From Rhodospirillaceae bacterium (GTDB taxonomy: Bacteria; Pseudomonadota; Alphaproteobacteria; Rhodospirillales; CALINB01): a stretch of 64,000 nucleotides of DNA. Under the pieces are notes generated by a model, which worked only from the letters and a program-made list of their open reading frames with translations, made no database searches and was not told the origin of the DNA. Below are positions 10,570-64,000 of the stretch, one piece after another. Position numbers and translations under genes: made by a program. The number at the start of each line of letters is the position of its first letter. The stretch's first letter is position 1. The stretch covers positions 89,528-153,527 of the forward strand of contig JAYNQW010000004.1 in assembly GCA_038114465.1 (NCBI GenBank). The letters run 5' to 3'.

Positions 10570-11763
10570 TTAAATAACGTTACGAGAACGGAGTTCGGCA
10601 AGCTGCTCTTCGCTGAAACCCAAACCCGATAAAATTTCATCTGTATTCTCGCCCCGTTCAGGTGGGGCCACTTTTAACGCGCTTTTCGACCGGTTCATAC
10701 GGATGGGTTGCGGCACCAATTCGATATCACCCATCGCTTCGCTCTTGACCGTCTCGCGAATTTTCAAATGTTCGACTTGCGGTTCCGCAAACACTTGATC
10801 GATAGTGTTGATCGCACCGCAGGGAATACTGGCGTCATTTAAGCGCTTCAGCCAATACTCTGTTGTATTTTCGGAAAAAAGCTCGTTGAGATCATCACAA
10901 AGCTGGTCGCGGTTTTTATCGCGGGATGCACCATCGACGTACTTCGGATCATCAATCCACACTTCTTTGTCGACTTCTTTGCAGAACCGGGCCCAAATCA
11001 CATCGCCGGCAACACCGAGATTCATATGGCCGTCTTTGGTTTTAAATACACCGGTCGGCATACTTTGCGGATGATTGTTACCGGCCTGTCCCGGAATTTC
11101 CTGATTGACCAGCCAACGGGCGGCTTGAAAATCGAGCATAAAAATCAATGATTGCAAAAGTGATGTGTTGACCCACTGTCCTTTGCCCGATTTTTCCCGC
11201 TCGATGATGGCAAGCAAAATTCCGTAAGAACAGAAAATGCCCGAACAAAGGTCAGCGATCGGGATGCCCACACGCATCGGGCCTCGGCCCGGCTCACCGG
11301 TAATCGACATCAGGCCGGCCATGCCTTGCGCAATTTGATCAAACCCCGGGCGTTTCGCATCGGGGCCGTCTTGACCGAAACCGGAAATACTGCCGAGGAT
11401 AACCCGGGGGTTGATGGCGGCAAGCGTGTCATAATCGATGCCTAAGCGTGCCTTGACATCAGGCCGAAAATTTTCGACGACAACATCGGCGTCTTTCACA
11501 AGCTTCTTAAAGATTTCGAGTCCGTCAGGCTCTTTCAGGTTGAGCGTTAAGCTGCGCTTATTCCGCTGCAGATTTTGGAAATCCGGCGTATGCCGGGGCG
11601 CGCCCAAAGCGCCATCGGCTTCCAAGGCCGAGGGCATTTCAACCTTGATCACATCAGCACCCCAATCGGCAAGCTGGCGTACACAGGTCGGGCCCGAACG
11701 CACACGGGTCAGATCGAGAACTTTAATGTGGTCTAAAACATCGGCTGCAGGGACGTGTGGCAT
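10570..11763 (-). CDS. CoA-transferase family III (CaiB/BaiF type), full length
   Basis: 397 aa. VLDLTRVRSGPTCVRQLADWGADVIKVE N-terminus and GFGQDGP...GLMSITGEPGRGPMRVGIPIADL core. Paralog of 3..878. Confidence 0.9.
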   Translation of the reverse strand: MPHVPAADVLDHIKVLDLTRVRSGPTCVRQLADWGADVIKVEMPSALEADGALGAPRHTPDFQNLQRNKRSLTLNLKEPDGLEIFKKLVKDADVVVENFRPDVKARLGIDYDTLAAINPRVILGSISGFGQDGPDAKRPGFDQIAQGMAGLMSITGEPGRGPMRVGIPIADLCSGIFCSYGILLAIIEREKSGKGQWVNTSLLQSLIFMLDFQAARWLVNQEIPGQAGNNHPQSMPTGVFKTKDGHMNLGVAGDVIWARFCKEVDKEVWIDDPKYVDGASRDKNRDQLCDDLNELFSENTTEYWLKRLNDASIPCGAINTIDQVFAEPQVEHLKIRETVKSEAMGDIELVPQPIRMNRSKSALKVAPPERGENTDEILSGLGFSEEQLAELRSRNVI

Positions 11764-11840
11764 GGAATCTCCCAGTCACAATTTATTTTGATTTCAATTC
11801 GGCCTTTGTCATAGCCAATCTGCTGGGCCCTCGACAAGCC

Positions 11841-13229
11841 TTAAGCGCGAAAATCCTTCATATCCGCCAAATCGGGCTTCTCAAAAAGCGCTGAACACCA
11901 GGCTTGAAGAACATCAGCCTGCTGGTCCGACCAGCCGCCGAACAGGACATTGGCGCGGAATTTTGCCTCCAGTTCTTCGCGGGTCAGAGGTTCCTTCACA
12001 CCGCCCCGAAGATGGGGCTGACGGACCTCCCGGGTACTGCCGTCATCGAGAGTCACAATCAAATGTCCTGAATAATTCTTAGGGTATTCATCATTGGGGT
12101 CGATTTCGTAAGTAATTTTCGAGGCAAGCTCGAGCACCTTCGGATCGGTTGTTCGCTCCTCGGTGAACTGCTTGAGACCTGCAGCCTGATCGATAATGCC
12201 GATGGCCGAACAGAAATGTCCGCTGAACTTTGCCGAATACGGTGTCGAAGGTTTTTGCTTTTCCGCTTCAGGCTCCCACAACCGGTGCACGGTCCCTTCG
12301 CCGACTTTCGCGATAATACTTTTTACCTTCGACGGATCGAGGCCCTCACGGCCCAATTTCACGGCACAATCAATAAAGGGCTGGGTCATCGTACCGCAGG
12401 CGTATGGTTTGAAAGCCGCCCTTTCCATTAAAAATTCTTGGCCAAGGCCATCCGTGATCGGCGAGAAATCGTATTCATGGTCTGGGTCGCCGAAGGCAAA
12501 ATAGAAACCGTGCTCGCCTTCGAGGACGGTGCGCGGACCTAAAAAGCCCCCCCGGCCCATTAGTGCGGCGCGAAGGCCGCACTGCGCGGACCAACCTGGA
12601 TGCATCCGTTTGGTCCATGTACCTTCCGCCAGATATTCAATGATACCGGATGCCAAGCTGGCGGCGATGCCTAACGCATTGGTTAAGTCTTTCGCCGAAT
12701 AACTTAACGCCGAACTGACCGCCGCCGTCGTTCCCATGGCGCCGATCACGGCCGTCGGGTGAAACCCGGCCCGGTGCACTGTGGTTTGCGCGACCAAGGC
12801 CATGCGGCACATGAGTTCGCAACCGACCACGATACCGCGCAGCGCATCGGCGCCGCTGAGGTTATAGCGTTCGCAGGCGGCAAGGGTCGCTGCGATCACC
12901 GGGGCGCCGGCATGAACCGGCGTACCTTCAAACGTATCGTCATAATCTTCGCCATGAGCGGCAGTACCGTTAATTAACGCCGCGCCGGCTGCATCCAAGC
13001 CTTGGGCATGACCGAACGCCGTACAACCACCCTCACCGTCCCAAGTTGTCGCAATTGCCTTCACGTAATCTTCATTACGCGCGGCGACGCATAATCCGGA
13101 AATATCCAAGACTATTTCCGATGCCTTGTTCCGGGCGGCGGCGGAAATACCGTCATTTTTAAGTGATGCCGCAAAATCGGCAAATATTTGCGAGGGAGAC
13201 AGGCCGGATGCCAGCGTTTTATTGCTCAT
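11841..13229 (-). CDS. MmgE/PrpD family protein (2-methylcitrate dehydratase-like)
   Basis: 462 aa from the ATG at 13229; the ORF-track start at 13316 adds an unlikely 29-aa leader. PrpD-family length and composition. Same strand as the downstream CoA-transferase/hydratase. Confidence 0.75.
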   Translation of the reverse strand: MSNKTLASGLSPSQIFADFAASLKNDGISAAARNKASEIVLDISGLCVAARNEDYVKAIATTWDGEGGCTAFGHAQGLDAAGAALINGTAAHGEDYDDTFEGTPVHAGAPVIAATLAACERYNLSGADALRGIVVGCELMCRMALVAQTTVHRAGFHPTAVIGAMGTTAAVSSALSYSAKDLTNALGIAASLASGIIEYLAEGTWTKRMHPGWSAQCGLRAALMGRGGFLGPRTVLEGEHGFYFAFGDPDHEYDFSPITDGLGQEFLMERAAFKPYACGTMTQPFIDCAVKLGREGLDPSKVKSIIAKVGEGTVHRLWEPEAEKQKPSTPYSAKFSGHFCSAIGIIDQAAGLKQFTEERTTDPKVLELASKITYEIDPNDEYPKNYSGHLIVTLDDGSTREVRQPHLRGGVKEPLTREELEAKFRANVLFGGWSDQQADVLQAWCSALFEKPDLADMKDFRA

Positions 13230-51437: not shown

Positions 51438-51989
51438 ATGAGCCGATTAGAAACATTAACCCCTGAGACGATGACGGAAGAACAGCGTAAAGTTCATGAT
51501 GACATCGTTGCCGGACCGCGCGGCAAAATGACGTTGCCAATGAACGCTTGGCTGCGCAGTCCGCCATTTGCCGATGGCGCGCAAAACTTAGGGGCGTTCA
51601 TCCGCTGGGGCTCAACCCTCGATGCCCGGCACGTCGAGCTCGCCATTCTCATTATGTTGCGCTATTGGACAGCACAACCGGCTTGGTATTCGCATGTTCA
51701 GCACGGCCTGAAAGCCGGTTTGGAGCTGGAAATCATTGACGCGATTAAGGAAATCAAACGGCCGGATTTCAAACGATCCGATGATGAGGCCTTGTTTGAT
51801 TTTTGCGTTTCGCTCATTCTTGACCACGAAGTGCCCGACGAAGCTTATGATGCTGCCGTAAAAGAATTCGGGGAACGGGGCGTTATGGAGATCATCGGCG
51901 TGATCGGTTATTACTGCATCACATCGATGACCTTAAAGGCCTTTCGTGTTCCCATGCAGGAAGGTGTCGAACCTCAGCTTAAGGACTAG
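51438..51989 (+). CDS. Carboxymuconolactone decarboxylase/AhpD-like family protein
   Basis: 183 aa with a strong AAGGAG SD. All-helical CMD-family pattern (RHVELAILIMLRYW..., MEIIGVIGYYCITSM). Confidence 0.65.
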   Translation: MSRLETLTPETMTEEQRKVHDDIVAGPRGKMTLPMNAWLRSPPFADGAQNLGAFIRWGSTLDARHVELAILIMLRYWTAQPAWYSHVQHGLKAGLELEIIDAIKEIKRPDFKRSDDEALFDFCVSLILDHEVPDEAYDAAVKEFGERGVMEIIGVIGYYCITSMTLKAFRVPMQEGVEPQLKD

Positions 51990-51997
51990 CTTTTCGT

Positions 51998-52804
51998 TTA
52001 CGCGCCCTGGCTATCAACAAATTTTTCCAATTCAATTGTCGATTCGACAGAAACAAATCGGGCAGGCCCTTCAGTAACTTTTAATGAAATTTTGCTGCCT
52101 TTTGGAATCTCAATAACATCATCACGGCTACATTGCTGGCAATCGCCGTCAACACTGACTTCAAGACCGCCCCGCACCAGATAAATGAACCGTTCATGTT
52201 CACTGGTATGCAGGGGTTCTTCATGTCCCATGGGCATATCGCAAAAGCCAAAATTTAACCGTTCGCCCATGACACGGCGGATGGTTTTGGCCGAATTTGC
52301 CGGCGCGTCGAAGGAATCTATAATGTTGTAATAGGGTGTCCCAAAACCATCGAAAATGGCCGTGGATTTCTCCGGGTCTTTTTCTTCACCGGGCCATTCA
52401 CCCTTGGCATGTTTCGCCCAGACTTCTTCTTCGACAGGCGGTGCATCCGGCAGCGGCTCATCAACGGCGGCGCCCACCATCGACCACGTCGGCTCTTTAA
52501 TCGCGAGATAACACATATCCCCTTCTTCGGCGGCTTTGAGCTGATGCTGCGCGCTCGGCGGCACATGCATTAGTGTTCCCGGCATGATCATGCGGCGATC
52601 CTTGCCGCACAAAGCATTCGCTTTTCCTTCAAGGATGAAGATCATGTAATCATTAGGGTGATAATGGGCTACCGATCCCGTGCTGGTTTCTTTTCGAACG
52701 TGCGCAAAGTAAATATATTTTCCGACGATTTTTCGAGTTTGCCCCGTAGACAAATGAACCGCACGCGTCCGGGCTTCATAGTTTTCGAACCGGTGAAATG
52801 TCAT
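51998..52804 (-). CDS. Bicupin protein (same subfamily as the single-domain cupins), copy B
   Basis: 268 aa. The N-domain has STGSVAHYHPNDYMIFILEG and GTLMHVPPSAQH. The C-domain has LHTSEHERFIYLVRG. Confidence 0.75.
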   Translation of the reverse strand: MTFHRFENYEARTRAVHLSTGQTRKIVGKYIYFAHVRKETSTGSVAHYHPNDYMIFILEGKANALCGKDRRMIMPGTLMHVPPSAQHQLKAAEEGDMCYLAIKEPTWSMVGAAVDEPLPDAPPVEEEVWAKHAKGEWPGEEKDPEKSTAIFDGFGTPYYNIIDSFDAPANSAKTIRRVMGERLNFGFCDMPMGHEEPLHTSEHERFIYLVRGGLEVSVDGDCQQCSRDDVIEIPKGSKISLKVTEGPARFVSVESTIELEKFVDSQGA

Positions 52805-52841
52805 CGTAGCCTCCCTCAGTTTTAATTTATTAATTCGTTAT

Positions 52842-53639
52842 TTATTGATCGATTTTTTCTTCCAAATACGGCATCGAAATAACGGATGCGTAACGAACAG
52901 GTCCTTTCGTTACTTTAGCGGAAAATTTACTCCCTTTCGGAATCTCTAAAACGTCGCCGGGCTCACACGATTTGGCCTCACCGGCAATATATGTCTCCAA
53001 ATGTCCATTAATGAGATAGATAAATTCCTCATGGTCCGTTTTAGGACGCTCGATTTTAGTACCCTCCGGCATATCAGAAAACTCGAACGCGAGCCTCTGC
53101 CCCTCAACCCGCCGAATTCGATTTAATGAAATCGATGGCGCATCAAACGAATCAATCACCGGATAATAACAATGATTTAACCCGTCGAGTATCGCGGAAG
53201 ATTGTTCAGGATTTTTTTCACCGCCCGGCCACTCCCCGGCGGCATATTGCTTAGCGACGTCTTCAACATCCGGCGCCTTATCTGGCAGAGCCTCATCTTC
53301 AGCAACACCCACCATCGACCAGGTTTGGTCTTTAATATAAAGATATTGCATATCTTCTTCTTCGGTTGCCTTAACGGAATGACGGGCGTTTGGCGGAATA
53401 TGAACGAACGTGCCCGCGGGAACCACACGGCGATCCCGACCGACGACGATATTCGCCTTTCCTTTGATGACGAAAACAAGCAATTCGTTGGGGTGATAAT
53501 GAAGCTCTGAACCGGTGCCCGCGGCCTTTGTGACATGGCAAAAGAACATGTACTGGCCTTCAATTTTACGGTTCTGTGCCGTTGTTAAGTGAATCGCGTG
53601 GGCGCGTGCTTTATAATCTTCAAACCGGTGGTATGGCAT
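52842..53639 (-). CDS. Bicupin protein, copy A (tandem paralog)
   Basis: 265 aa from the ATG at 53639. That start (MPYHRFEDYKARAH) aligns with MTFHRFENYEARTR of copy B. GTGSELHYHPNELLVFVIKG. Confidence 0.75.
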   Translation of the reverse strand: MPYHRFEDYKARAHAIHLTTAQNRKIEGQYMFFCHVTKAAGTGSELHYHPNELLVFVIKGKANIVVGRDRRVVPAGTFVHIPPNARHSVKATEEEDMQYLYIKDQTWSMVGVAEDEALPDKAPDVEDVAKQYAAGEWPGGEKNPEQSSAILDGLNHCYYPVIDSFDAPSISLNRIRRVEGQRLAFEFSDMPEGTKIERPKTDHEEFIYLINGHLETYIAGEAKSCEPGDVLEIPKGSKFSAKVTKGPVRYASVISMPYLEEKIDQ

Positions 53640-53791
53640 AGAATGATCACTCCCTTTCACCGCTCATCATATACTCCTTTTAATCGATCGCAAATCCTGC
53701 GCCATATGCACATGGAACCCATCGGCAAAAAAACCGCATGATATAAACAAATTTTGCGTTTAAATTTAGATATTTAGTATACGCAGGCCGG

Positions 53792-54565
53792 TTAAGTGAG
53801 TTGATCCATGAATTCAACCAGCTTAATACACGTCTCCGCACCATGACGTTTCGTCATTTGCAGGCGGCCTGTTTCTGAAGACAGCACTTCACTCAAATCA
53901 GCAAATAAGTCTTTCAATAACCATTGAAATGTCGATTGGGTAAGCTGCAAACTCAGCAAGTCCTGCGCCGATATTTTTTCTGAAGCACCGGAATGATCGT
54001 TAACGAGGTCGACAAACCACGTGGCACTTTCATCGATGCTCTCCAAGTGAAGAGCTAAAGCCACTAAAGCATCAAGCGCCACATGCTGGGCATCTTTATC
54101 GCCGTAAATTTTATTCCAATCGATATTTTCTAAACTGCCATTGGCACGCTTGATGATTTCTTTCGTCATTTCCTGATAACGCTCTATCAGGCTGCGGCCC
54201 AGCAATATGTGGAGAACCGTAAAAAAACCGGGCAATACGGATCGGGATAATTGATGGTCGTCTTTAATGGCTTCGTGAGGATTAACGAGACGGTGTTCAA
54301 ATGCGCGAACGATCAAGCGGCCGAAAAAATTTTCCCGCTTATCGTCTTGCACGCCGAGTGTGCGCAAAACCCTGAGATAGTCCTCAATGTCCATCTGTGT
54401 ATGTTCAGTTTTATCGGCGGCTTTTGCTGGCTTTGGCTTTGCCTTAGCGGTTGTCGTCTTTTGGGCAACTTTGCCATGATCCGTTGCAGGTATAAAAAGT
54501 TCAGCAGGAGCCTCTTCGGCAGGCTGTGCTTTCTTTTGTAAGGAGGCCCCGGATTTATTCGCCAT
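53792..54565 (-). CDS. Hypothetical protein with disordered Lys/Ala/Pro-rich N-terminus
   Basis: 257 aa with no motif I recognise. The N-terminal ~55 aa are low complexity (TTTAKAKPKPAKAADK) and the remainder looks helical. Confidence 0.5.
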   Translation of the reverse strand: MANKSGASLQKKAQPAEEAPAELFIPATDHGKVAQKTTTAKAKPKPAKAADKTEHTQMDIEDYLRVLRTLGVQDDKRENFFGRLIVRAFEHRLVNPHEAIKDDHQLSRSVLPGFFTVLHILLGRSLIERYQEMTKEIIKRANGSLENIDWNKIYGDKDAQHVALDALVALALHLESIDESATWFVDLVNDHSGASEKISAQDLLSLQLTQSTFQWLLKDLFADLSEVLSSETGRLQMTKRHGAETCIKLVEFMDQLT

Positions 54566-54831
54566 GGCGTTTCATTAACCTTCACGTCGTTTCGCTAAAC
54601 CAAATTTCCAAGCAAAGTTCGATTTTGCCCGGATATGTCTACAGGGGTCCTATAAGCTAAATATATTAACAAATAATATAATTAGCACAATATATTGGGT
54701 CCGCATTGCCGAGCACGGGGCAATGAAGAAATCGTCTTTATTTTTTTATGGAGAACCTGGCCGGGCCGATAATGTGCCATAAACCAACCGGTTTAGCGAA
54801 CGAATTTCACAATAACAAACAAGACCAACGT

Positions 54832-54866
54832 AATTCCTTTCAATTTTAATCAAATTGAATGGAATT
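54832..54866. promoter_or_regulatory. Imperfect 15-bp inverted repeat upstream of selA
   Basis: AATTCCTTTCAATTT-TAATC-AAATTGAATGGAATT (one mismatch), about 90 bp upstream of the selA ATG in an AT-rich 390-bp spacer. Confidence 0.25.
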
Positions 54867-54954
54867 TTATATTTGTGATTCGACTTGCTTGACGATCCAA
54901 GTGATGAGCCCTAGCTTACACACGTCTCATAAACCGTCGGGACCGTGTGTACCC

Positions 54955-56388
54955 ATGACTTCCTCCAAAGCCGCTTTGGCTACCATCCCTTCTGTCGATG
55001 CTATTCTGAGATTGCCGTCTATTGAAGCGCTCATTGACACCCATGGGCGAGCGCTTGTAACCGATGCAGCACGGACGACACTTTCGGACCTTCGAAAAAA
55101 AATAACGGCAGAAAACGAATCGTCACAAATCGCCACGGACGAAGAATCGATATCGGCGGTGATATCAAGATTGTTGAAATCGTGGTCCGAACCCAGCTTG
55201 CAAAATGTTTTCAATCTTACCGGCACGGTCCTGCATACAAATCTCGGCCGGGCTTTGCTACCCGAAGTCGCCATCGATGCCATGGTGGCGGCCGGCCGGC
55301 AAGCATCCAACCTGGAATTTAATCTCGCAACCGGCAAGCGCGGCGACCGGGACGATCACTTCAACGAAATTATTTGCCGCTTAACGGGGGCTGAAGACGC
55401 GACGGTTGTAAACAACAATGCCGCCGCTGTCTTATTATGCTTAAACACTTTGGCTCTTCGTAAGGAGGTGCCTGTGTCGCGCGGGGAATTGATCGAAATC
55501 GGCGGATCGTTCCGCATGCCCGATATTATGAGCCGGGCGGGCTGCAAACTGATTGAGGTCGGCACGACAAACCGGACCCATCTGAAAGACTTTGAAGGCG
55601 CAATCAACGAACGGACGGCGCTTTTGATGAAGGTTCACACCAGCAACTATGCCATTGAGGGTTTCACCAAGGCAGTGCCTGAAAAAGAATTGGCCTCTCT
55701 CGCGCACAAAAACGATATTCCGTTTATCGTCGATTTGGGTAGCGGCACCCTGACTGATTTAACCCAATTCGGCCTACCGCACGAACCGATGGCCCAGGAA
55801 ACATTCGCTCAAGGCGCAGATGTCGTAACTTTCAGCGGTGATAAGCTTCTCGGCGGCCCTCAAGCCGGCATTATCGCCGGGCGGGCCGATCTGATCGCAA
55901 AAATTAAAAGCAATCCGATGAAACGGGCGATGCGACTCGATAAAGTTACGATTGCCGCCCTCACCGCCGTGCTGCAGCTATATTTGAATCCCGAAAAATT
56001 AGCGGAACGCTTGCCGACAATTAGATTACTTTCGCGGCCCCAGGATGAAATCAATAAACTTGCTGTTCAAGTACAACCGCATTTGCAAGATTGGCTTGGC
56101 CCCGATTTTCATACCACCATTGAGGATTGCCACAGCCAAATCGGCAGCGGCTCCCTGCCCTTGGCAAAACTGCCAAGTGCTGCTCTCGTTATTCGTTCTA
56201 AGGAGGGCAAACGAAAATCGGGTGCCTTGATGCGCCGTCTTGCCGATGCTCTGCGGAAACTCCCCTGCCCGGTGATCGGCCGCATTCAGGACAATGCGTT
56301 ATGGCTCGATCTGCGCTGTCTTGAAGATGAAGAAGGATTTGCCGCTCAGCTTTCCGCCAAACATGTTCCCATCGAGACGCAATCATGA
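54955..56388 (+). CDS. selA: L-seryl-tRNA(Sec) selenium transferase
   Basis: 477 aa from the ATG at 54955. IPSVDAILRLP N-terminus and the PLP-lysine motif FSGDKLLGGPQAG. ATGA overlap with selB. Confidence 0.9.
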   Translation: MTSSKAALATIPSVDAILRLPSIEALIDTHGRALVTDAARTTLSDLRKKITAENESSQIATDEESISAVISRLLKSWSEPSLQNVFNLTGTVLHTNLGRALLPEVAIDAMVAAGRQASNLEFNLATGKRGDRDDHFNEIICRLTGAEDATVVNNNAAAVLLCLNTLALRKEVPVSRGELIEIGGSFRMPDIMSRAGCKLIEVGTTNRTHLKDFEGAINERTALLMKVHTSNYAIEGFTKAVPEKELASLAHKNDIPFIVDLGSGTLTDLTQFGLPHEPMAQETFAQGADVVTFSGDKLLGGPQAGIIAGRADLIAKIKSNPMKRAMRLDKVTIAALTAVLQLYLNPEKLAERLPTIRLLSRPQDEINKLAVQVQPHLQDWLGPDFHTTIEDCHSQIGSGSLPLAKLPSAALVIRSKEGKRKSGALMRRLADALRKLPCPVIGRIQDNALWLDLRCLEDEEGFAAQLSAKHVPIETQS

Positions 56389-58322
56389 TTGTCGCAACGG
56401 CAGGACATATCGATCACGGCAAAACACTACTGGTCAAAGCCCTGACCGGGGTCGAAACGGACCGGTTACCGGATGAGAAGCGTCGCGGCCTGACGATCGA
56501 CCTTGGCTTCGCTTACCAAGATATCGGCCAAAAAGACATCTTGGGGTTTGTCGATGTCCCTGGCCATGAAAAATTCGTCCGCAACATGCTGGCCGGTGTC
56601 ACCAATATTGACTTTGCTCTTCTTATTGTTGCCGCCGATGATGGCGTGATGCCGCAAACGATTGAACACTTAGAAATTCTCAATTTACTGGGCATCAATA
56701 ACGGCGCTATCGTCATCACAAAAATAGACCGTGTTGAAAAAAACCGCGTTAACGAAGTCGATGATGAAATCGAACAGTTGTTACAAGGTTCAACATTGCA
56801 AAACGCTCCGGTTTTTTATGTCTCAGCGTTGACAGGCGATGGCATCGAGACACTTAAATCTTATTTATATGAGGCCGCCGAAACAACCGAACAACGGCAA
56901 TCCAAGGGTCACTTTCGTCTCGCCGTTGATCGTTGCTTCACGCTATCCGGTGCAGGCCTTGTCATCACCGGGTCCGTCTTTTCCGGTGAAGTACACAATG
57001 GTGATCAACTCATTGTTTCGCCGCACGGCATGCCGGCGCGGGTTCGCAGCCTACATGCCCAAAACCAGGAATCCGATACAGGGCACGCCGGGCAACGTTG
57101 CGCCCTGAATATCACGGGGCGCGACCTCAAAAAATCAGCCGTGCAACGTGGCGATTGGATTGTCTCTAAGCCCGCGCACATCCCCTCCGACCGCATCGAT
57201 GTTTATGTGAAGGTACTGGCCGGAGAATCCAAACCGATCCGCCATTGGACCCCTGTGCATATCCATATAGGTGCCGCCGACATATCGGGACGAGTCGCAA
57301 TACTAGAAGGCGGCTCAATCCCTTCGGGAGGGACCGGCTACGCTCAGCTGGTCTTGGATGAAAAAACCAATGTTCTTTTTGGGGACCGTTTCATCTTACG
57401 CGATCAATCTGCACGCCGGACGATCGGCGGAGGATATATACTCGATCCCTTCGCACCCAAACGCGGTCGAGCCCGGCCCGAGCGCCTCGAACAGCTGTTA
57501 GCAATGGATGACAAAGATCCAAAAACCGCTTTGGTTAAACTTTTAGAAGTTTCACCAAAAAGCATCCAAGTGAATCAGTTCCTTGCCGCACGCGGCATTA
57601 CGGAAGCAGAGGAAAATATCATCACAGAACCGGCGGATACGGTCATATTCGGATCTGATGAAAATCGCTTTGCCGCATCGAAAAATCATTGGGATGAATT
57701 AGGCGAAGAAATTAATGCCGTATTGAAAAAATGGCACAAAGAACGGCCAGAGAGCCCCGGGTTAACAGTTGAACAGATCAGAAAACGCCTGAGCATCCGT
57801 CAAATCGCCGGCGCGCTTGAAGCCGCCATTGAAACACGGGTTGCTGAAAAACATTTAACCCGTCATAGCGAGCTGATCAGCGTGGCAGGGCACAGGCCAG
57901 CCATTCCACCGCAAGAAGAGGCGCTGTGGAAACGCGTTCAACCGATCCTCGAAGAGGCCGGCATCAGACCGCCGACGGTCCGCGAGCTCGCAAACGTTCT
58001 CGACATGAAACCCGATCAATTGCAAAAATTTCTGGACCGTACCGCCCGGCGGGGGCTCGTTCAATCCGTCGCGAAAAACCGGTATTTCACGTTGAACGCG
58101 CTGAATGAGCTGGGGTCCATGGCACAGGAGTTATCCGAAGCCAACAACGGCGGGGCTTTCAACGCTGCCGCATTTCGCGACCGCTCGGGGATCGGCCGCA
58201 ATCTAACGATCGAATTGCTTGAACACTTCGATAAGGTTAAATTGACCAAACGCCAGGGAGACCTGCGCACTGTCGTTCAACCCGTCGATAAAATTTTCCC
58301 GACACCTACGGAGACTCCATAA
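56385..58322 (+). CDS. selB: Selenocysteine-specific translation elongation factor
   Basis: 645 aa. G-domain AGHIDHGKT, DVPGHEKF and ITKIDRV, plus a long C-terminal winged-helix extension. Confidence 0.9.
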   Translation: MIVATAGHIDHGKTLLVKALTGVETDRLPDEKRRGLTIDLGFAYQDIGQKDILGFVDVPGHEKFVRNMLAGVTNIDFALLIVAADDGVMPQTIEHLEILNLLGINNGAIVITKIDRVEKNRVNEVDDEIEQLLQGSTLQNAPVFYVSALTGDGIETLKSYLYEAAETTEQRQSKGHFRLAVDRCFTLSGAGLVITGSVFSGEVHNGDQLIVSPHGMPARVRSLHAQNQESDTGHAGQRCALNITGRDLKKSAVQRGDWIVSKPAHIPSDRIDVYVKVLAGESKPIRHWTPVHIHIGAADISGRVAILEGGSIPSGGTGYAQLVLDEKTNVLFGDRFILRDQSARRTIGGGYILDPFAPKRGRARPERLEQLLAMDDKDPKTALVKLLEVSPKSIQVNQFLAARGITEAEENIITEPADTVIFGSDENRFAASKNHWDELGEEINAVLKKWHKERPESPGLTVEQIRKRLSIRQIAGALEAAIETRVAEKHLTRHSELISVAGHRPAIPPQEEALWKRVQPILEEAGIRPPTVRELANVLDMKPDQLQKFLDRTARRGLVQSVAKNRYFTLNALNELGSMAQELSEANNGGAFNAAAFRDRSGIGRNLTIELLEHFDKVKLTKRQGDLRTVVQPVDKIFPTPTETP

Positions 58323-58350
58323 ATGCCGGGAAAAATTTTGAATGAATTCA

Positions 58351-58390
58351 GGAAGGGAATCGGGCCCGGTGGCTCGGACGGACTTCAAAT
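58351..58390 (+). pseudogene. selC: 5' half of tRNA-Sec (selC) ending at the 3' edge of the anticodon loop
   Basis: GGAAGGGA (8-nt acceptor strand), AT, CGGGCC-CGGT-GGCTCG (6-bp D stem with 4-nt loop, a tRNA-Sec hallmark), G, ACGGA, then the loop CTTCAAA with the TCA anticodon at 58385-58387. The expected TCCGT stem, variable arm and T arm are absent; TTTTAAAGCCCTG follows instead. Confidence 0.7.
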
Positions 58391-58595
58391 TTTAAAGCCC
58401 TGTTTTTACTGATTCACACCAGTTAACACATTCTTTTATTTTCAATATGTTAGCTGGTTACTTGTGCCTTCATTTACCCTCTAAAACTACCCCTTTCTAA
58501 TCCGTTGGGTGCCAATTTACTCATTATTATCTAATAACGCAGCCACCCAAATATCAGGCGCGTTTTTGAATGATGAATTCAGAAAGGAGTTAGCT

Positions 58596-59803
58596 ATGCC
58601 GACAGAAACTACCCGAAAGAAGCTTTATAATGAAGTCTGGGAACGGCCAATGGTTAAAGTCGCTGCCGATTATGGTATTTCTGATGTTGTACTGAAAAAG
58701 ATTTGCAAAAAATTCAACATTCCAGTGCCTGGCCGCGGCTATTGGGCCAAACTAGCTGCTGGTAAATCAGTAAGCCGTATTCAATTACCTCCAATCGGCG
58801 GGGATGATGGAAAAATCATAATTTCTGGCATGCCTAAGAGCCAATTGCCGACAAACGTAATCGAAGCTAAATATCAAGCTGAAATATTTGAAAGTTTGAA
58901 CGACAATAATATCGATGTCGAAGGTTTTTACTACCCGACCCACTCCTTAATAACAAAAACTAGAAATAAGCTGGAAAAACGTAAGGCTGACAAACAGGGT
59001 CTGGTCCACCTTCATAATAAATCAGATTTTTGGCTTTCCATATCTCCTGCCAGCCTTGATCGCGTTGCAATATTTCTAAATGTATTTGTTCACGAATCTG
59101 AAAACAAAGGGTTTCAGTTCAAACCCCATGATGATGGGTTAAATATTGTTGTCAATAATGAATCCATAAGCCTTTCTATCGAAGAAAAGCTCGATAAGTC
59201 TCCACATGAACTTACAGAAAAGAGATCAATAAAATAAACAGGTGGGATAAGCGACATAGTTATCTTGATGAAAGTCCCTGGAAATCCAGCGCAAGGTTGA
59301 GAGATAACAACATCTCTAAATGGAATTACACGCCAAACGGTAAACTCGTGATAAAACTGGATCAATACTATAACGATGGCATTCGCCGGCGTTTCTTTGA
59401 TGCAAAAATACAAAAAATTGAAAGTCATCTAAACAACATAATGGTTTCCCTTGTGGCCTGCGCAGCGGCCGCACATGAAAGAAAAATTGAAGCTGAACGC
59501 CGCCACCAAGAGTATTTGGTTGTACAGGCCAAGAGAGAAGAAAACCGTCGGAAACAGGAAATCGAGGAAATTCGAGTCAAATTTTTGGTGAAACGTTTAG
59601 ATGAATGGAAGGACCTTCAGAGTATTAAAGCTTTTATCACTGATGTCGCTAAAACAGCGCCTGATATGCCTGAAGGCGAACGGCAAGCTGTATTAAACTG
59701 GGTTGACTGGGCCCAGGATTATGCGGAAAGACTAAACCCGATTAACCGCTATTATTTTGACCTAGAAAAAATCGATAAATTAAAGTCTTGGGAATTGAGT
59801 TAG
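58596..59803 (+). pseudogene. Hypothetical protein (GRGYWAK motif N-domain plus charged coiled-coil C-domain), apparently frameshifted
   Basis: The ATG at 58596 follows a GGAG SD. Frame A ends ...SPHELTEKRSIK*. Frame B is open from 59210 and reads TLQKEINKINRWDKRH...NISKWNYTPNGKL. A 1-nt shift in the A-run near 59215-59222 would join them into a protein of about 400 aa. Confidence 0.55.
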
Positions 59804-59923
59804 AAACGACCCCTGGGATTTACCAGCTCTTGGGTAACTTAAAAGATCGACTCAGTGTGAAATGTGACAAATGCATTGAATTGATACCCGAATATGATCC
59901 AAGGCGATCAATCAATTGACAGG

Positions 59924-60178
59924 TTAGAAAACCTTATTGTGATCCCTGCCCTCGCCGCCATGGGACTCTTTCTTTCTCATCATCAAGAGTAACTCATAGA
60001 CAATTAGCCCACCACCTATGCCGCCAACTCCATAAAGGATAAGCACGCGTACGATTTGCTCCATGGCGTGCTTTGTAGGTGTTAATACGACTAAACCCTG
60101 ATCTAAAACGGCAACAACTGCTATTCCCAATAAGGCGAAGAAATACATCAGGGGATCGTGTTTCATTTTTTCAGTCAT
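59924..60178 (-). CDS. Small two-TM membrane protein
   Basis: 84 aa with two hydrophobic helices. It lies 13 bp downstream of the CPBP gene on the same strand. Confidence 0.5.
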   Translation of the reverse strand: MTEKMKHDPLMYFFALLGIAVVAVLDQGLVVLTPTKHAMEQIVRVLILYGVGGIGGGLIVYELLLMMRKKESHGGEGRDHNKVF

Positions 60179-60190
60179 CCTTAAGCTACC

Positions 60191-60853
60191 TTATACGAAG
60201 TGCCATACATCAATAGCGTAGTGGGCAATGATGGGCGGAATGATAGAGCGTGTTGAAATAAATAATACCATAAGAATAACACCACTGACAAAGGCCCCAA
60301 CAACATTAGGCACTCCATTTGACCAATGCGTTAAGGCGAATATAAGTGATGAGGCAATAGTGAGAATGGTTGAACTGCTCGTAAATTGCTCGATCACCCC
60401 CCTTAATACGCTTCGAGAAGAAAATTCTTCAGCAAATGCATTAAGTGCTAACCCAAAAGTGAGATCGATCCAGTAAAGGGGTGCAGAATTAACCCCTGGG
60501 TACGTAAACAGCGCTGTGCCTGGTATGAGATTTACAAGCGGTTGGCGGATAACAAATTCAACTGCAAAAAGCAGAACAATAGCAATCAGTGTGAACAATG
60601 CTGATTTGATGATGGGTGCTCTTGATTGCCCTTCATCTCCTCGTATCCAGTTGAACGATTGTTTTACATATTCCCGGAAGCTCGGCATCAATAAAACAAT
60701 CGCAAGAACCAATGCCTTGGATATGTAATCAGCCAGCAGCCACTGCTCTGGTGTTTCGGCTGAAATGTAGAAAACGTCATTAATATAAAGTGGTGCAAAT
60801 AAGAGCCCCAATAAGGCAATTTCTTGGCTGCGAGAAGGAGCTTGGCGTGGCAT
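60191..60853 (-). CDS. CPBP-family intramembrane glutamic endopeptidase (CAAX protease/Abi-like)
   Basis: 220 aa, polytopic. Motifs AEEFSSRSVLRG (EExxxR), FALTHW (FxxxH) and AHYAIDVW (HxxxD/N). Confidence 0.8.
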   Translation of the reverse strand: MPRQAPSRSQEIALLGLLFAPLYINDVFYISAETPEQWLLADYISKALVLAIVLLMPSFREYVKQSFNWIRGDEGQSRAPIIKSALFTLIAIVLLFAVEFVIRQPLVNLIPGTALFTYPGVNSAPLYWIDLTFGLALNAFAEEFSSRSVLRGVIEQFTSSSTILTIASSLIFALTHWSNGVPNVVGAFVSGVILMVLFISTRSIIPPIIAHYAIDVWHFV

Positions 60854-61002
60854 GTTCTACTTCTGTTTTATATTTGTTCTCAAATTTGTACTAACTATGT
60901 TCTTTGTTCTCATGCAAATCATACAAATTGAATTATGACTTAATTATCAACCGAATCTATACAAAAGTATAAGTTTCAATGGTTTACGCCAGAAATTTAT
61001 AG

Positions 61003-61392
61003 CTACTTTTTGCGTTTATCTTTTCCTGAAAAATTTTTCTTAAATTGCCTTCGCCGGTCCGGGCCGATGTAAGTGATGTTGCTGTCACAGTCCCTTATTA
61101 CGATGAAATTTTTTAATTGATCGCCAGACAAAAAGTTCATCATTCCTTTTGGTTGCTTTTCACCAATGACAAGCAGATCCATTGAAATTCCAAAATATTG
61201 ACTAAGGGCAATCAAAGTTAAGATGCTTGGTTCTCGCTCTCCACGCTCATATTTTAAAATGGTATCTGTTCTGAGCCCGATAACTTCGGCAATATCTTTT
61301 GCGGTCAATCGATGACGTTCGCGGAGCTTGCGAAGGTTTACACCAAATCGCTCAGAAGCTGCTTTTTCAGGGGTAGCCCTTTTTTTTGCCAT
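61003..61392 (-). CDS. XRE-family helix-turn-helix regulator
   Basis: 129 aa. LRKLRERHRLTAKDIAEVIGLRTDTILKYERGEREPSILTLIALSQYFGIS. Divergent from the integrase gene. Confidence 0.8.
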   Translation of the reverse strand: MAKKRATPEKAASERFGVNLRKLRERHRLTAKDIAEVIGLRTDTILKYERGEREPSILTLIALSQYFGISMDLLVIGEKQPKGMMNFLSGDQLKNFIVIRDCDSNITYIGPDRRRQFKKNFSGKDKRKK

Positions 61393-61505
61393 CAGCTTAT
61401 TTTGACATCTACAAATGAGAACATTTCAACAATACAAAATGTCTGGTTTATAGCCAACCTTTTCCGCCTTCAGTAAGGTTCTTCAAAAATTCATGGGAGG
61501 CAACT

Positions 61506-63287
61506 ATGGACCGAATTGAGCTGATCAACCGAGGCAAGGAGTATTATCTGCAGGCAACAATCCCCGATGATCTGATTGAAGAAATTGGAAAGCCAGTTAT
61601 AGAAATTCCCCTTAATACAACTGACATTGTGCTCGCACGAGATCGGTTCTTCGTTGAGCGGCTTAAATTGGCGCAATCAATACGTGCTGGGAGGAAGCTT
61701 TTTGACCTAGAAGAATTAAATACGGCATTCGGCCAGGATATTAGCAAGCTATGCAAAAAGCTGTTCAATGACAAAGTCAAAAAACTTTTATGGGAGCAAG
61801 GCCGAAACTTAGAGCTTGAAATTAAAAATTGGCAAAATGACCTTTATGCTAATGAGTGGTCAGACAAGAACAACAAGTCAGTATTGGAAATTCTATCTGA
61901 CATTGGGATGATATTACCCTGTGAATCTTTATGTTTTGAGCTTGCCCGCAAACAGATAGCCCGAACTATTTTATCCGCATTGACGCTTGCCGAGAATCTC
62001 AAGAGCGGTGGAGATGAAATTGATGCTGAACTAACTCAGCTTATATCGTTACCCGATAAGACTGCTCCACAGGACAGGTCCGTTGTTCCAATTGAACGTG
62101 AAATTGACATTACCGTAGATCAAATGATTGAGCTTTTTTTAAGCGAAAAGCGTATGAGGTGGGCGAACCCTGACGCGCTAGGCACTTATAAAATTGCGTT
62201 TAGGGCCTTACGGGAAATTGTCGGGGCTGAACGAAAGATTAAGCACATTACCCGAGCCGATGGGATCCGAATGCAAGACATTCTGTCACGTATTCCCAAA
62301 AACCCTACACACCTTTACCCACACTTAACGCTTGAACAAGCAGCCAAACAAGCAGAAACCGAAGGCATTGAATCGATAACAAAACGCTCTTCAAGAGGAC
62401 ATCTTATAAAAATATGCTCAATTCTGAATTGGGCCGTGAAAGCCCTTTATTTAAGTGCAAATCCATTAAGGGGCTTTGGGTCATCTTTAAAAGGTGAAAT
62501 GAGTGTGCGCCGCTGGCGGCCATTTACGATTGGTGAAATGAATGAATTATTTCAATCACCAGTTTTCACAGGGTGCAAAAGCGACCGTTACCCTTTGGAG
62601 GCCGGAGAATACAAAGTTACCGATAGCCGGTATTGGGTTCCCTTGATTGCGCCATGGACCGGAATGCGCCTCATGGAAATTTGCCAATTAGAGGAATCCG
62701 ATATTCAAATTCATGCCGGTATCGATGTGATCAGTGTTTCAAAAGTATCCCTCGAAGGTGAAGGAGATGACACCAAAGCTGTTAAGTCAGAGGCCGGCAA
62801 TAGGTTAATTCCAATACACCCTGAACTTGTTAAGCTTGGGTTCCTTGATTTTGTTAAAGAAAGGCGGAAGACTGGGAAAATTAGATTATTTCCGGAGGTT
62901 TCCCTTTATAAAAACCGCCGTTACGTTACGTCATTTAGCCCTTGGTTTCGGCGTGTCTTGAACAGCCTCGGCTATAAAGACAAGCGTTTAGTTTTCCATT
63001 CTTTCAGGCACAGCTTTCGTGATGCCCTAAGAGAGGGGGAAGTTAACCAAGAGGCCGTTTGGAAACTTGGCGGCTGGAGCCCGAATAGCCGCGGCACTGA
63101 TGCACACTATGGGGAAGGCTTAAGTGTTAAGTCACTTTATAAGGCGATCAAAAATATTGAGTATCCTGGGTTGGAAGTTTCACATTTATACCGAGAAGAT
63201 TTAGATGCATTCAATACCGAGAACACAGGCCCATTTACTGTTACGCGGTACAAAAACATGGGTAAGGGTGTTTGGCAAGTTGAGTAA
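61506..63287 (+). CDS. int: Tyrosine-type site-specific integrase (large, 593 aa)
   Basis: GGGAGG SD. C-terminal catalytic signatures TGMRLMEICQL (Arg), HSFRHSFRD (H-x-x-R) and GTDAHYGEG (Tyr). Long N-terminal extension. Confidence 0.85.
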   Translation: MDRIELINRGKEYYLQATIPDDLIEEIGKPVIEIPLNTTDIVLARDRFFVERLKLAQSIRAGRKLFDLEELNTAFGQDISKLCKKLFNDKVKKLLWEQGRNLELEIKNWQNDLYANEWSDKNNKSVLEILSDIGMILPCESLCFELARKQIARTILSALTLAENLKSGGDEIDAELTQLISLPDKTAPQDRSVVPIEREIDITVDQMIELFLSEKRMRWANPDALGTYKIAFRALREIVGAERKIKHITRADGIRMQDILSRIPKNPTHLYPHLTLEQAAKQAETEGIESITKRSSRGHLIKICSILNWAVKALYLSANPLRGFGSSLKGEMSVRRWRPFTIGEMNELFQSPVFTGCKSDRYPLEAGEYKVTDSRYWVPLIAPWTGMRLMEICQLEESDIQIHAGIDVISVSKVSLEGEGDDTKAVKSEAGNRLIPIHPELVKLGFLDFVKERRKTGKIRLFPEVSLYKNRRYVTSFSPWFRRVLNSLGYKDKRLVFHSFRHSFRDALREGEVNQEAVWKLGGWSPNSRGTDAHYGEGLSVKSLYKAIKNIEYPGLEVSHLYREDLDAFNTENTGPFTVTRYKNMGKGVWQVE

Positions 63288-63386
63288 TTCACAAATGCTT
63301 TTCAATTTCTTATGGCATGGAGTTATCACCCGAGGACAGAAAACTAACAATGAGATCTTTAGATTGTTCAGATCGGCCTTAATACA

Positions 63387-64000
63387 TTGCAAACTCCCCT
63401 GAACCTTTATTTCCAGGACCTACAGGTCGGGCAGCTTCGATACCAAGTTGGCGGAGAATTAGAATTTATCTATCACACTGACTGGCTTGGGTGGGAACAT
63501 GCATTCCCTGTTTCACTTTCTCTACCACTCAAAGCGAAACCGCATATTGGCAATAATGTTACAACTGTGTTTGACAATCTCCTTCCAGATAAGGTCGAGA
63601 CTCGTCTTAGATTGTCAGAGATTGTCGAGGCAAATGGGTATGATGTTTACAGTCTCTTAGCCAAGATTGGGCGTGATTGTGCGGGAGCAATACAGCTACT
63701 CCCTGAAGGTGAAGAGCCAACTTCAAATGAAGCTGTCAAAGGCCGATCGATAGATGATCAAAACATTGCTGAAATGTTAAACAATCTTTCGACGCTATCA
63801 TTAGGAATTGGCCCTAGTGAGGATTTCAGAATCACATTAGCCGGGGCCCAAGAAAAAACAGCCTTATTATTTTGGAAGGATAAATGGCATATTCCAGAAC
63901 AAGCAAGCCCGACAACGCATATTATCAAGCCTGAAATAGGAATTCTAAACAATGGGCTCAACCTAACCCAAAGTGTTGATAATGAATTTTTTTGTTTAAC
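63387..64000 (+). CDS. hipA: HipA-family serine/threonine kinase toxin, N-terminal part (runs off the window)
   Basis: This ORF is absent from the ORF track because it has no stop in the window. The frame is open from 63363 and the likely start is the TTG at 63387. AFPVSLSLPL, FDNLLPD, IGRDCAGAIQLLPE, FRITLAGAQEKTALL, PTTHIIKPEIG and SVDNEFFCL match the HipA N-terminal domains. Confidence 0.8.
   Translation, partial: MQTPLNLYFQDLQVGQLRYQVGGELEFIYHTDWLGWEHAFPVSLSLPLKAKPHIGNNVTTVFDNLLPDKVETRLRLSEIVEANGYDVYSLLAKIGRDCAGAIQLLPEGEEPTSNEAVKGRSIDDQNIAEMLNNLSTLSLGIGPSEDFRITLAGAQEKTALLFWKDKWHIPEQASPTTHIIKPEIGILNNGLNLTQSVDNEFFCL

What the first reader, a model, noticed from the sequence alone, without database searches (positions are those of the whole stretch)
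58351..58395. tRNA-Sec stops at the anticodon loop exactly where an integrase island begins
Seen: 58351-58390 reads as the 5' half of a bacterial tRNA-Sec. It has an 8-nt acceptor strand GGAAGGGA, a 6-bp D stem with a 4-nt loop (CGGGCC-CGGT-GGCTCG), anticodon-stem strand ACGGA and loop CTTCAAA with the TCA anticodon. The complementary stem strand (expected TCCGT), the long variable arm, the T arm and the acceptor 3' strand are all missing. AT-rich island DNA follows from about 58391. Established: selC is a classical island integration hotspot, and tyrosine integrases often cross over in the anticodon loop. Normally the element carries a copy of the displaced tRNA segment so that an intact gene is regenerated. 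Two inferences follow. Either the element duplicates the 5' half, so that the intact selC lies at the far (unseen) end and this is the leftover host 5' fragment. Or selC is genuinely split or inactivated.
Basis: partly seen in the sequence, partly recalled or inferred. Interest (0 to 1): 0.7.

Follow-up and report, generated by a model that had tools for sequence, protein, structure and literature searches.

The report
Leftover tRNA-Sec half beside an island
The half selenocysteine-tRNA gene is the stub left when a 25.8 kb mobile island inserted into the gene; the island carries its own copy of the first 40 bases, so a complete gene is rebuilt at its far end, which is a known but uncommon arrangement.

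Summary
Window 58351-58390 is identical to nt 1-40 of the tRNA-Sec gene, and the match stops one base past the anticodon loop. No full tRNA-Sec lies in the window.

Overlapping contigs extend the window. One NCBI MAG contig carries all the genes from SelB to PrpD in consecutive accession order. Together they place an intact tRNA-Sec (Rfam 79.7 bits) at window-equivalent 84200-84294. Its first 40 nt are a perfect direct repeat of 58351-58390.

The DNA between the repeats is a 25.8 kb island. A second tyrosine integrase, Int#2, ends 101 bp upstream of the rebuilt gene. The motif GGGTGCCAATT occurs three times in 94 kb, and all three copies sit just inside the two island ends. Five relatives have an uninterrupted selB-selC-DinB-like-PrpD locus.

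So the island entered selC at or near the anticodon loop and supplies the 5' half instead of the usual 3' half. Islander records this arrangement in 159 of 3919 islands. In 80 loci with homologous integrases, 10 have the same orientation, 8 of them at tRNA-Ser or tRNA-Sec.

Verdict: real, explained, and a new member of a known kind. Interest is modest.

The parts
54955..56388 (+). selA (selenocysteine synthase), host gene upstream of the site
   Evidence: Pfam SelA 3.2e-162. The called gene is 477 aa in L010. Synteny with relatives is conserved on this side.
56385..58322 (+). selB (Sec-specific elongation factor), intact, 645 aa
   Evidence: Pfam GTP_EFTU, Beta-barrel_SelB and SelB winged-helix domains. 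It is identical to NCBI MEL0106593.1 of a Rhodospirillaceae MAG.
58294..58334 (+). Conserved hairpin spanning the selB stop codon, just upstream of the tRNA start; host sequence, function unknown
   Evidence: Inverted repeat found. It is kept in 5 relatives, with 2 pairs changed on both sides.
58351..58390 (+). attL: displaced host 5' fragment of tRNA-Sec (nt 1-40), the left copy of the 40-bp direct repeat
   Evidence: Rfam truncated hit of 25.7 bits. It is 40/40 identical to the relatives' tRNA-Sec and to the intact copy at window-equivalent 84200-84239.
58391..58595 (+). Left end of the island (P' arm of the inferred attP), AT-rich and non-coding
   Evidence: Sequence diverges from all empty-site relatives exactly at 58391. 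GC drops here. Two promoter-like sites at 58413-58451 point into the island.
58507..58517 (+). GGGTGCCAATT, candidate arm-type integrase binding site, 117 bp inside the left junction
   Evidence: The exact motif occurs only 3 times in the 94-kb composite, all on the + strand. The other two are tandem copies at window-equivalent 84127 and 84138, 62-73 bp before the intact tRNA. Homologous integrases carry similar 11-bp-spaced tandem repeats in the same place.
58596..59803 (+). Two island ORFs of unknown function (about 213 and 151-168 aa)
   Evidence: ORFs and called genes. There are no Pfam hits above the curated cut-off and no NCBIfam or PHROG hits.
59924..60853 (-). Small membrane ORF plus a CPBP/CAAX-type intramembrane protease (island cargo)
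   Evidence: Pfam Rce1-like 8.8e-16. NCBI name: CPBP family protease, MEL0106597.1.
61003..61392 (-). XRE-family HTH regulator (island)
   Evidence: Pfam HTH_3 2.1e-14. NCBIfam RstR-like 4.6e-13, below that model's curated cut-off (49.4 vs 80 bits).
61506..63287 (+). Int#1: 593-aa tyrosine integrase with a DUF6538 N-terminus. It lies 3.1 kb inside the island and is probably not the enzyme responsible for the selC junctions.
   Evidence: Pfam Phage_integrase 5.5e-9 and DUF6538. PHROG 1 integrase 1.6e-27. No arm-motif copies or tRNA fragment lie next to it.
63387..64000 (+). hipA-family toxin kinase gene, cut by the window end (it runs to window-equivalent 64670)
   Evidence: L001 11882-13165 has Couple_hipA and HipA_C domains.
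58391..64000 (.). Part of the 25.8 kb island that lies inside the window. The rest runs to window-equivalent 84199. It carries a YeiH-family gene, an ECF sigma/ChrR pair, CMAS, DUF1365, amine oxidases and SDRs. Int#2 lies at 82452-84098, tandem arm motifs at 84127-84148, and the intact tRNA-Sec at 84200-84294.
   Evidence: Window 51506-64000 equals L001 1-12495. L001 20947-21782 equals L031 1-836 at 100% identity. The intact tRNA lies at L031 11749. The composite was built. The gene order matches consecutive NCBI accessions MEL0106593 to MEL0106621 on one 188,911-bp contig.

Best explanation
A 25.8 kb genomic island has integrated site-specifically into selC, the tRNA-Sec gene that follows selAB in this marine Rhodospirillaceae genome. 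Recombination was between the gene and an island attP that carries a copy of tRNA-Sec nt 1-40. The crossover is inferred to lie at or near the anticodon loop, at the right-hand limit of the shared 40 bp. Because the island carries the 5' part rather than the usual 3' part, it sits upstream of the regenerated gene. The functional selC is therefore the island-borne nt 1-40 joined to the host nt 41-95. It lies at the island's right end (attR), 101 bp downstream of integrase Int#2. The host's own nt 1-40 are stranded after selB at the left end (attL), which is the fragment at 58351-58390. Int#2 is the likely catalyst. It is a tyrosine recombinase with the conserved catalytic residues, and repeated GGGTGCCAATT arm-type sites lie on both sides of the inferred attP. 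Shown here: the two repeat copies, the intact gene, island contiguity, the empty sites in relatives and the arm motif placement. Inferred: the exact crossover point, which integrase acted, that the rebuilt selC is now transcribed from island sequence, and whether the island can still excise.
For: (1) The fragment equals nt 1-40 of tRNA-Sec and no more.

(2) Five relatives with SelB 75-80% identical, or with the same conserved flanks, have selB, an intact 95-nt tRNA-Sec, a DinB-like gene (-) and PrpD (-) with no insert.

(3) The extension is consistent across sources. The window overlaps L001 at 99.99% and L001 overlaps L031 at 100% over 836 bp. L031 carries the intact tRNA-Sec at 11749-11843, which is window-equivalent 84200. 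That gene scores 79.7 bits in Rfam against a gathering score of 47. It is followed by the DinB-like and PrpD genes, about 75% identical in nucleotides to the relatives' right flank.

(4) The JGI contig behind L001 runs on into the MFS gene of the same cluster (P0270). One NCBI MAG contig of 188,911 bp carries SelB MEL0106593, Int#1 ...599, HipA ...600, CMAS ...613, Int#2 ...620 and PrpD ...621 in order.

(5) The 40-mer occurs exactly twice in the 94-kb composite, in direct orientation.

(6) k=31 Logan contigs stop at tRNA nt 30 or 40 when approached from both the selB side and the Int#2 side, and L004 starts at nt 11. That is what a 40-bp repeat predicts.

(7) Int#2 matches Pfam Phage_integrase at 1.5e-27 plus SAM-like domains and PHROG 1 at 1.5e-75. 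R372, K410, H485, R488, H511 and Y521 are invariant across 23 homologues.

(8) All three exact copies of GGGTGCCAATT lie just inside the island ends. Homologous integrases have 11-bp-spaced tandem repeats in the same position. This was seen in 9 of 10 same-orientation loci by exact repeat (the tenth, L048, is imperfect) and in 22 of 28 canonical loci.

(9) Ten of 80 homologous integrase loci have the tRNA 5' end facing the integrase. The nearest neighbour in a rough tree, L070, also sits 103 bp before a tRNA-Sec.

(10) Islands with a 5' tDNA fragment are on record: 159 of 3919 in Islander, PMC4383910 Table 1.
Against: The composite beyond 64000 is stitched from three assemblies of different samples. 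I did not read the single NCBI contig itself. Its contiguity is inferred from accession order and the shared contig length. No consensus sigma-70 promoter was found in the 101-bp Int#2-tRNA spacer, so how the rebuilt selC is expressed is unknown. No empty-site allele and no attP circle junction was seen for this species, so current mobility is unproven. The island holds two integrases, and much of its cargo looks like ordinary chromosomal genes (the ECF sigma/ChrR and CMAS cluster). It may therefore be composite or old. The attP side of the core (TTTTAAAG) does not mirror the anticodon stem, so the core-site assignment is only an inference.
Confidence: 0.9

Rival explanations
1. selC is truly inactivated. 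The island inserted without restoring the gene, and the organism has lost or is losing selenocysteine decoding.
For: No full tRNA-Sec lies in the window or within 10 kb downstream of Int#1.
Against: An intact tRNA-Sec of 79.7 bits lies at the island's far end, on sequence that overlaps the window's extension and on the same NCBI contig. selA and selB are full length and identical across many samples.
Confidence: 0.02
2. There are two co-occurring strains or species. One has a broken selC (the window) and another has an integrase next to an intact selC (L020/L031). The link between them would be an artefact of stitching metagenome contigs.
For: The tRNA is 100% identical among relatives, so short-k assemblies break there. 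The composite uses contigs from different samples.
Against: The L001-L031 overlap is 836 bp at 100%. The L001 source contig itself continues into the MFS gene of the right-hand cluster (P0270 on the 62,752-bp contig). Consecutive NCBI accessions 593 to 621 lie on one 188,911-bp contig. One 36,291-bp ENA contig carries variants of SelB, Int#1, HipA, sigma, CMAS and the hydrolase together. Both junction types are found in the same samples, such as ERZ23498582, Ga0181593 and 3300022914.
Confidence: 0.04
3. The 5' fragment is one half of a split tRNA gene whose halves are joined in trans, as in Nanoarchaeum.
For: The break falls right after the anticodon loop, the position where known split tRNA genes are divided (from general knowledge, not tested here).
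Against: No free-standing 3' half exists. The 3' part was found only inside complete genes. The fragment is explained by a direct repeat flanking an integrase-bearing insert.
Confidence: 0.005
4. The 25.8 kb segment is not one element. It would be a tandem or nested composite: an older Int#2 island carrying the stress-response cluster, plus a later Int#1-HipA-XRE-CPBP module inserted near its left end. This modifies the best explanation rather than replacing it.
For: Two unrelated tyrosine integrases are present. The left 6.5 kb has lower GC (about 0.40) than the middle (0.41-0.50). An 18-bp imperfect repeat brackets Int#1-HipA (D15).
Against: No internal copy of the 40-mer or other tRNA fragment separates the modules. 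The arm motif at 58507 lies to the left of the Int#1 module, so the extreme left end belongs to the Int#2 system. The 18-bp repeat is about what chance gives, by my own estimate of roughly 0.6 expected in 8 kb. Every strain variant seen carries both modules.
Confidence: 0.3

Closest known systems
Genomic islands in tRNA/tmRNA genes with a displaced 5' tDNA fragment (Islander database; Hudson, Lau and Williams, Nucleic Acids Res 2015, PMC4383910)
   Same: It has an intact tDNA at one end and a cognate end-fragment in direct orientation at the other. A tyrosine integrase lies inside, the 25.8 kb size is within the 2-200 kb range, and the 5' fragment lies upstream of the tDNA. Islander lists 159 such islands among 3919, and 2083 islands with an anticodon-centred attP.
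   Different: This one is in an uncultured marine Rhodospirillaceae and targets tRNA-Sec. I did not check whether any of the 159 Islander cases uses tRNA-Sec or a related integrase.
Classical selC-associated pathogenicity islands of Enterobacteriaceae (for example LEE and PAI-I of E. coli, SHI-2 of Shigella); from general knowledge, not tested here
   Same: The target gene is the same (selC) and the mechanism class is the same (tyrosine integrase).
   Different: As far as I recall, those islands lie downstream of an intact selC next to its 3' end, with a P4-like integrase. Here the island lies upstream and supplies the 5' 40 nt, the crossover is near the anticodon loop, and the integrase is of a different family.
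Lambda-type heterobivalent tyrosine integrases with arm-type sites and an anticodon-loop crossover (for example phage HP1 at tRNA-Leu; Williams 2002 sublocation classes); from general knowledge, the paper was not held
   Same: The catalytic residues are conserved. Repeated arm-type motifs lie on both arms of the inferred attP. The identity block ends at the anticodon loop.
   Different: attP carries the tRNA's 5' half rather than the segment from the anticodon stem to the 3' end. The island must therefore also supply whatever drives transcription of the rebuilt gene.

Membership tests
tDNA-integrated genomic island (Islander signature) | Intact tRNA gene at one end | tested here: met
   tRNA-Sec at L031 11749-11843, which is window-equivalent 84200-84294. 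ARAGORN finds tRNA-SeC in the 99.9%-identical L020 and L022. Rfam scores 79.7 bits against a gathering score of 47.
tDNA-integrated genomic island (Islander signature) | Cognate end-fragment of the same tDNA at the other end, in the same orientation and on the correct side (5' fragment upstream) | tested here: met
   The 40/40 identical nt 1-40 lie at 58351-58390 on the + strand, upstream of the intact gene. There are only two copies in 94 kb.
tDNA-integrated genomic island (Islander signature) | Tyrosine integrase gene inside the interval | tested here: met
   Int#2 matches PF00589 at 1.5e-27 and Int#1 matches PF00589 at 5.5e-9. Both hit PHROG 1 integrase.
tDNA-integrated genomic island (Islander signature) | Segment absent from related genomes, which have an uninterrupted target (empty site) | tested here: met
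   L007, L008, L009, L021 and L023 have selB followed by the intact tRNA-Sec; the DinB-like gene follows wherever the contig extends far enough, and PrpD is seen in L007 and L009.
tDNA-integrated genomic island (Islander signature) | Excision and circularisation (attP and attB products) | not testable with these tools
   No empty-site allele of this species was seen among 21 SelB-bearing contigs. The read-level junction search could not be run.
Functional bacterial tRNA-Sec gene, as applied to 58351-58390 itself | Complete cloverleaf with an 8-bp acceptor stem, long variable arm, T arm and 3' acceptor strand | tested here: not met
   Only model positions 1-42 match. The 3' 55 nt are absent from the window and from the next 10 kb. 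The fragment is not a gene.
Split (trans-joined) tRNA genes | A separate 3'-half gene elsewhere, not part of a full gene | tested here: not met
   A metagenome scan with the 3' half returned only complete tRNA-Sec genes.
Heterobivalent tyrosine integrase (Int#2) | Catalytic R-K-H-R-H-Y residues | tested here: met
   R372, K410, H485, R488, H511 and Y521 are invariant in the alignment of 23 homologues.
Heterobivalent tyrosine integrase (Int#2) | Arm-type repeats on both attP arms, distinct from the core | tested here: inconclusive
   GGGTGCCAATT occurs twice 62-73 bp before the tRNA start and once 117 bp inside the left end. Equivalent 11-bp-spaced repeats are seen across the family. Binding was not tested.

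The most novel reading that the evidence does not exclude
Int#2 may belong to a cross-phylum lineage of tyrosine integrases that has flipped its orientation on the symmetric anticodon stem-loop. Such integrases would enter long-variable-arm tRNA genes (Ser and Sec) from the 5' side, so the island supplies the tRNA's 5' half and its transcription signals. Expression of the only selC would then be under island control and uncoupled from selAB.
Probability: 0.3. Interest if true: 0.45.

Novelty: new member of a known kind. Interest (0 to 1): 0.3.

Why it matters
The result settles a possible mis-annotation. This genome has not lost selC, and the 40-nt stub after selB should be annotated as an attL tRNA fragment rather than a pseudogene of consequence. 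It is also a worked example of the minority arrangement in which an island replaces the 5' half of a tRNA gene. In that arrangement the element, not the host, must provide the gene's upstream signals. Island-finding tools that look only for 3' fragments downstream of a tRNA would miss such islands. The family survey gives a testable lead. Integrases of this family carry 11-bp-spaced arm repeats just after their stop codon. A subset, mostly at tRNA-Ser and tRNA-Sec, uses the reversed orientation.

Tried and rejected
- I looked for the tRNA 3' half (expected acceptor strand, anticodon-stem strand and whole 3' 55 nt) in the window and in 10 kb beyond Int#1. Only random 7-10-mers turned up.
- I first took 58495-58512 (TTCTAATCCGTTGGGTGCC) for a decayed remnant of the tRNA 3' part. 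I rejected that reading: the GGGTGCCAATT in it is the arm-type motif shared with the other island end.
- I searched for direct repeats that would close a small island right after HipA. None was convincing.
- A scan of genome contigs with the 40-mer gave 0 hits, so the source genome and its close relatives are not among those species representatives.
- A look-up of the CMAS homologue P0122 led to a different relative and was uninformative for linkage.
- A promoter scan of the Int#2-tRNA spacer found nothing.
- Williams 2002 (PMC100330) is not held. A search for selC, integrase and anticodon loop gave 0 papers, and two literature queries failed on syntax.
- The split-tRNA and gene-loss readings were considered and rejected, as set out under the rival explanations.

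Full report
**What is at the coordinates**

Window 58351-58390 reads GGAAGGGAATCGGGCCCGGTGGCTCGGACGGACTTCAAAT. It starts 29 nt after the stop codon of a full-length selB (56385-58322), which follows selA. ARAGORN and Rfam at gathering score find no tRNA-Sec anywhere in the window.

When the search is cut at 58391, the Rfam tRNA-Sec model gives a 3'-truncated hit of 25.7 bits (E=7e-4) over model positions 1-42, with near-maximal posterior probabilities. When it is allowed to run on, the model scores only 16.7 bits, with filler after the anticodon loop. GC drops from about 0.50-0.56 to about 0.40 at this point.

**What the intact gene looks like**

SelB has close homologues at 75-80% identity. 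The exact protein is named by NCBI as coming from a Rhodospirillaceae MAG. In three relatives (L007, L008, L009) an identical 95-nt tRNA-Sec follows selB directly. Downstream of it lie a 236-aa DinB-like gene and a PrpD-family gene on the minus strand. Two more relatives (L021, L023) have the same arrangement.

The window matches that tRNA at 40 of 40 positions for nt 1-40 and not at all afterwards. The break is therefore 58390|58391, one base past the anticodon loop. Upstream synteny with the relatives is conserved: a TPP enzyme at 90% amino-acid identity and two further ORFs at about 80%. The relatives' downstream genes are absent from the window and from the next 10 kb.

**Finding the other half**

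The 3' part of the tRNA is absent from the window and from L001, a metagenome contig 99.99% identical to the window that extends it by 9.3 kb.

Short-k (Logan) contigs of the same organism gave a first clue. They end exactly at tRNA nt 30 or nt 40, and one begins at nt 11. A k=31 graph does this when the 40 nt are repeated.

A metagenome scan with the 3' half then returned four contigs, all with complete tRNA-Sec genes. In two of them (L020 and L022) the left flank is not selB. L022 comes from the same sample as island contig L006. The left flank in both is a 548-aa tyrosine integrase, here called Int#2. It ends 101 bp before the tRNA and is transcribed in the same direction. The right flank is the DinB-like/PrpD pair, about 75% identical in nucleotides to the relatives.

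**Linking the two ends**

- L031, from the same ENA sample as L002, is 99.9% identical to L020 and overlaps the right end of L001 by 836 bp at 100%.
- The JGI contig behind L001 itself continues into the MFS gene of the L031 cluster (P0270 on the 62,752-bp contig).
- In an NCBI MAG, one 188,911-bp contig carries these proteins in consecutive accession order: SelB MEL0106593, CPBP protease 597, XRE 598, Int#1 599, HipA 600, YeiH 601, sigma 604, cytochrome c 609, FAD oxidoreductase 611, DUF1365 612, CMAS 613, MFS 614, SDR 617, hydrolase 619, Int#2 620 and PrpD 621.
- In the stitched 94-kb composite the 40-mer occurs exactly twice, at 58351 and 84200, in direct orientation.
- The second copy is the start of an intact tRNA-Sec scoring 79.7 bits in Rfam against a gathering score of 47.
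- Logan contigs approaching from the Int#2 side also stop at tRNA nt 30 or 40.

**Interpretation**

A 25,849-bp segment sits between two 40-bp direct repeats, has a tyrosine integrase at one end, and is absent from five relatives that have a precise empty site. This is the signature of a site-specifically integrated genomic island. It is unusual in that the island carries the 5' part of the target tRNA.

The rebuilt gene therefore lies at the island's right end and consists of island nt 1-40 plus host nt 41-95. The host's own nt 1-40 are stranded after selB. The repeat begins exactly at tRNA position 1, with no similarity upstream, and ends just after the anticodon loop. That pattern fits a crossover in the loop, with attP carrying the segment needed to restore function. 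The crossover position itself is inferred.

**Which integrase**

Int#2 has the catalytic residues R372, K410, H485, R488, H511 and Y521, all invariant across 23 homologues. It matches PF00589 at 1.5e-27.

The 11-mer GGGTGCCAATT occurs three times in 94 kb, all on the + strand. Two are tandem copies 62-73 bp before the intact tRNA. One lies at 58507-58517, 117 bp inside the left junction. In a reconstructed attP these copies would flank the core by about 100-120 bp on each side, as arm-type sites do.

I fetched 80 loci encoding 35-46% identical integrases. An 11-bp-spaced tandem repeat lies just after the integrase stop codon in 9 of the 10 loci with the same orientation by exact repeat; the tenth, L048, has an imperfect copy. 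One of these, L039, has nearly the same word, GGTGCCAAT. Exact repeats of this kind also occur in 22 of 28 canonical-orientation loci.

Int#1 (61506-63287, DUF6538 type) lies 3.1 kb inside the island. No tRNA fragment or arm motif lies near it. It is probably cargo or part of a nested element.

**Is the arrangement known?**

Yes. Islander's own statistics list 159 islands with a 5' tDNA fragment against 3760 with a 3' fragment. Its configuration filter explicitly accepts a 5' fragment upstream of the tDNA (PMC4383910).

Among the 80 homologous loci, 47 have a tRNA gene adjacent to the integrase:
- 37 are canonical, with the tRNA 3' end facing the integrase.
- 10 are reversed: seven at tRNA-Ser, one at tRNA-Sec and two at tRNA-Lys.

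In a rough neighbour-joining tree, the nearest neighbour of Int#2 is the integrase of L070, a Vulcanimicrobiota MAG. It also sits before a tRNA-Sec, with a 103-bp spacer compared with 101 bp here. This suggests a lineage with the flipped orientation, but the tree is crude and the far ends of those islands were not available.

**What remains open**

- No consensus promoter was found between Int#2 and the tRNA, so how the rebuilt selC is transcribed is unknown.
- No empty-site allele or circle junction was seen for this species, so current mobility is unproven.
- The island may be composite. It has two integrases. Its left module, of about 6.5 kb and GC about 0.40, carries hypothetical ORFs, a CPBP protease, an XRE regulator, Int#1 and HipA. 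A larger block carries an ECF sigma/ChrR pair and the amine oxidase-DUF1365-CMAS-MFS cluster.
- I did not read the single NCBI contig directly.

**Verdict**

This is a new member of a known, minority kind of tRNA-gene island. Interest is modest.

Noticed in passing
window 9367-9452 (+): ARAGORN calls an 86-nt tRNA-Arg (anticodon gcg) here. Rfam finds no tRNA at gathering score, nor at E<=1 in a local search. It is probably a false positive.
   Followed up: partly
window 58294-58334: A hairpin (TTTTCCCG...CGGGAAAA) spans the selB stop codon just upstream of the tRNA start. It is conserved in five relatives, with two pairs changed on both sides. Its function is unknown; it may be a processing or termination signal between selB and selC.
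   Followed up: partly
L031 10001-10480 (window-equivalent 82452-82931): The Int#2 ORF is 548 aa, but homologues are about 385 aa and align from about residue 160. The extra N-terminal part gives a weak Pfam hit to Zn_dep_PLPC (1e-7). It could be a fused domain, a gene remnant or a mis-called start.
   Followed up: no
L037-L116 (80 loci from genome contigs): Integrases of this family have two or more direct repeats at 11-bp spacing just 3' of their stop codon, whichever way the adjacent tRNA faces. The word varies with the integrase, for example GGTAGCAA, ATGTTAGCAAA and GGCACACAA. These look like arm-type sites that co-vary with the protein.
   Followed up: partly
L001 13421-21782 and L031 1-9565 (window-equivalent about 64900-82000): The island cargo resembles a singlet-oxygen/ECF sigma-ChrR type stress cluster. 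It includes ECF sigma, a ChrR-like cupin, a fasciclin-domain protein, two SDRs, two amine oxidases, DUF1365, cyclopropane-fatty-acid synthase, MFS, DUF3833 and SnoaL. A relative carries the same CMAS cluster on contigs with no integrase in view.
   Followed up: no
L001 19933-20562 (window-equivalent 71438-72067): Two adjacent short ORFs of 98 and 104 aa both hit GTP_cyclohydroI. This may be a frameshifted or split folE/queF-like gene.
   Followed up: no
L013, L015-L018, L032, L034, L036, L004: Logan contigs end or start exactly at tRNA nt 30, 40 or 11. This is a clean example of a 40-bp att repeat fragmenting k=31 assemblies, and the pattern could be used to detect such repeats.
   Followed up: yes
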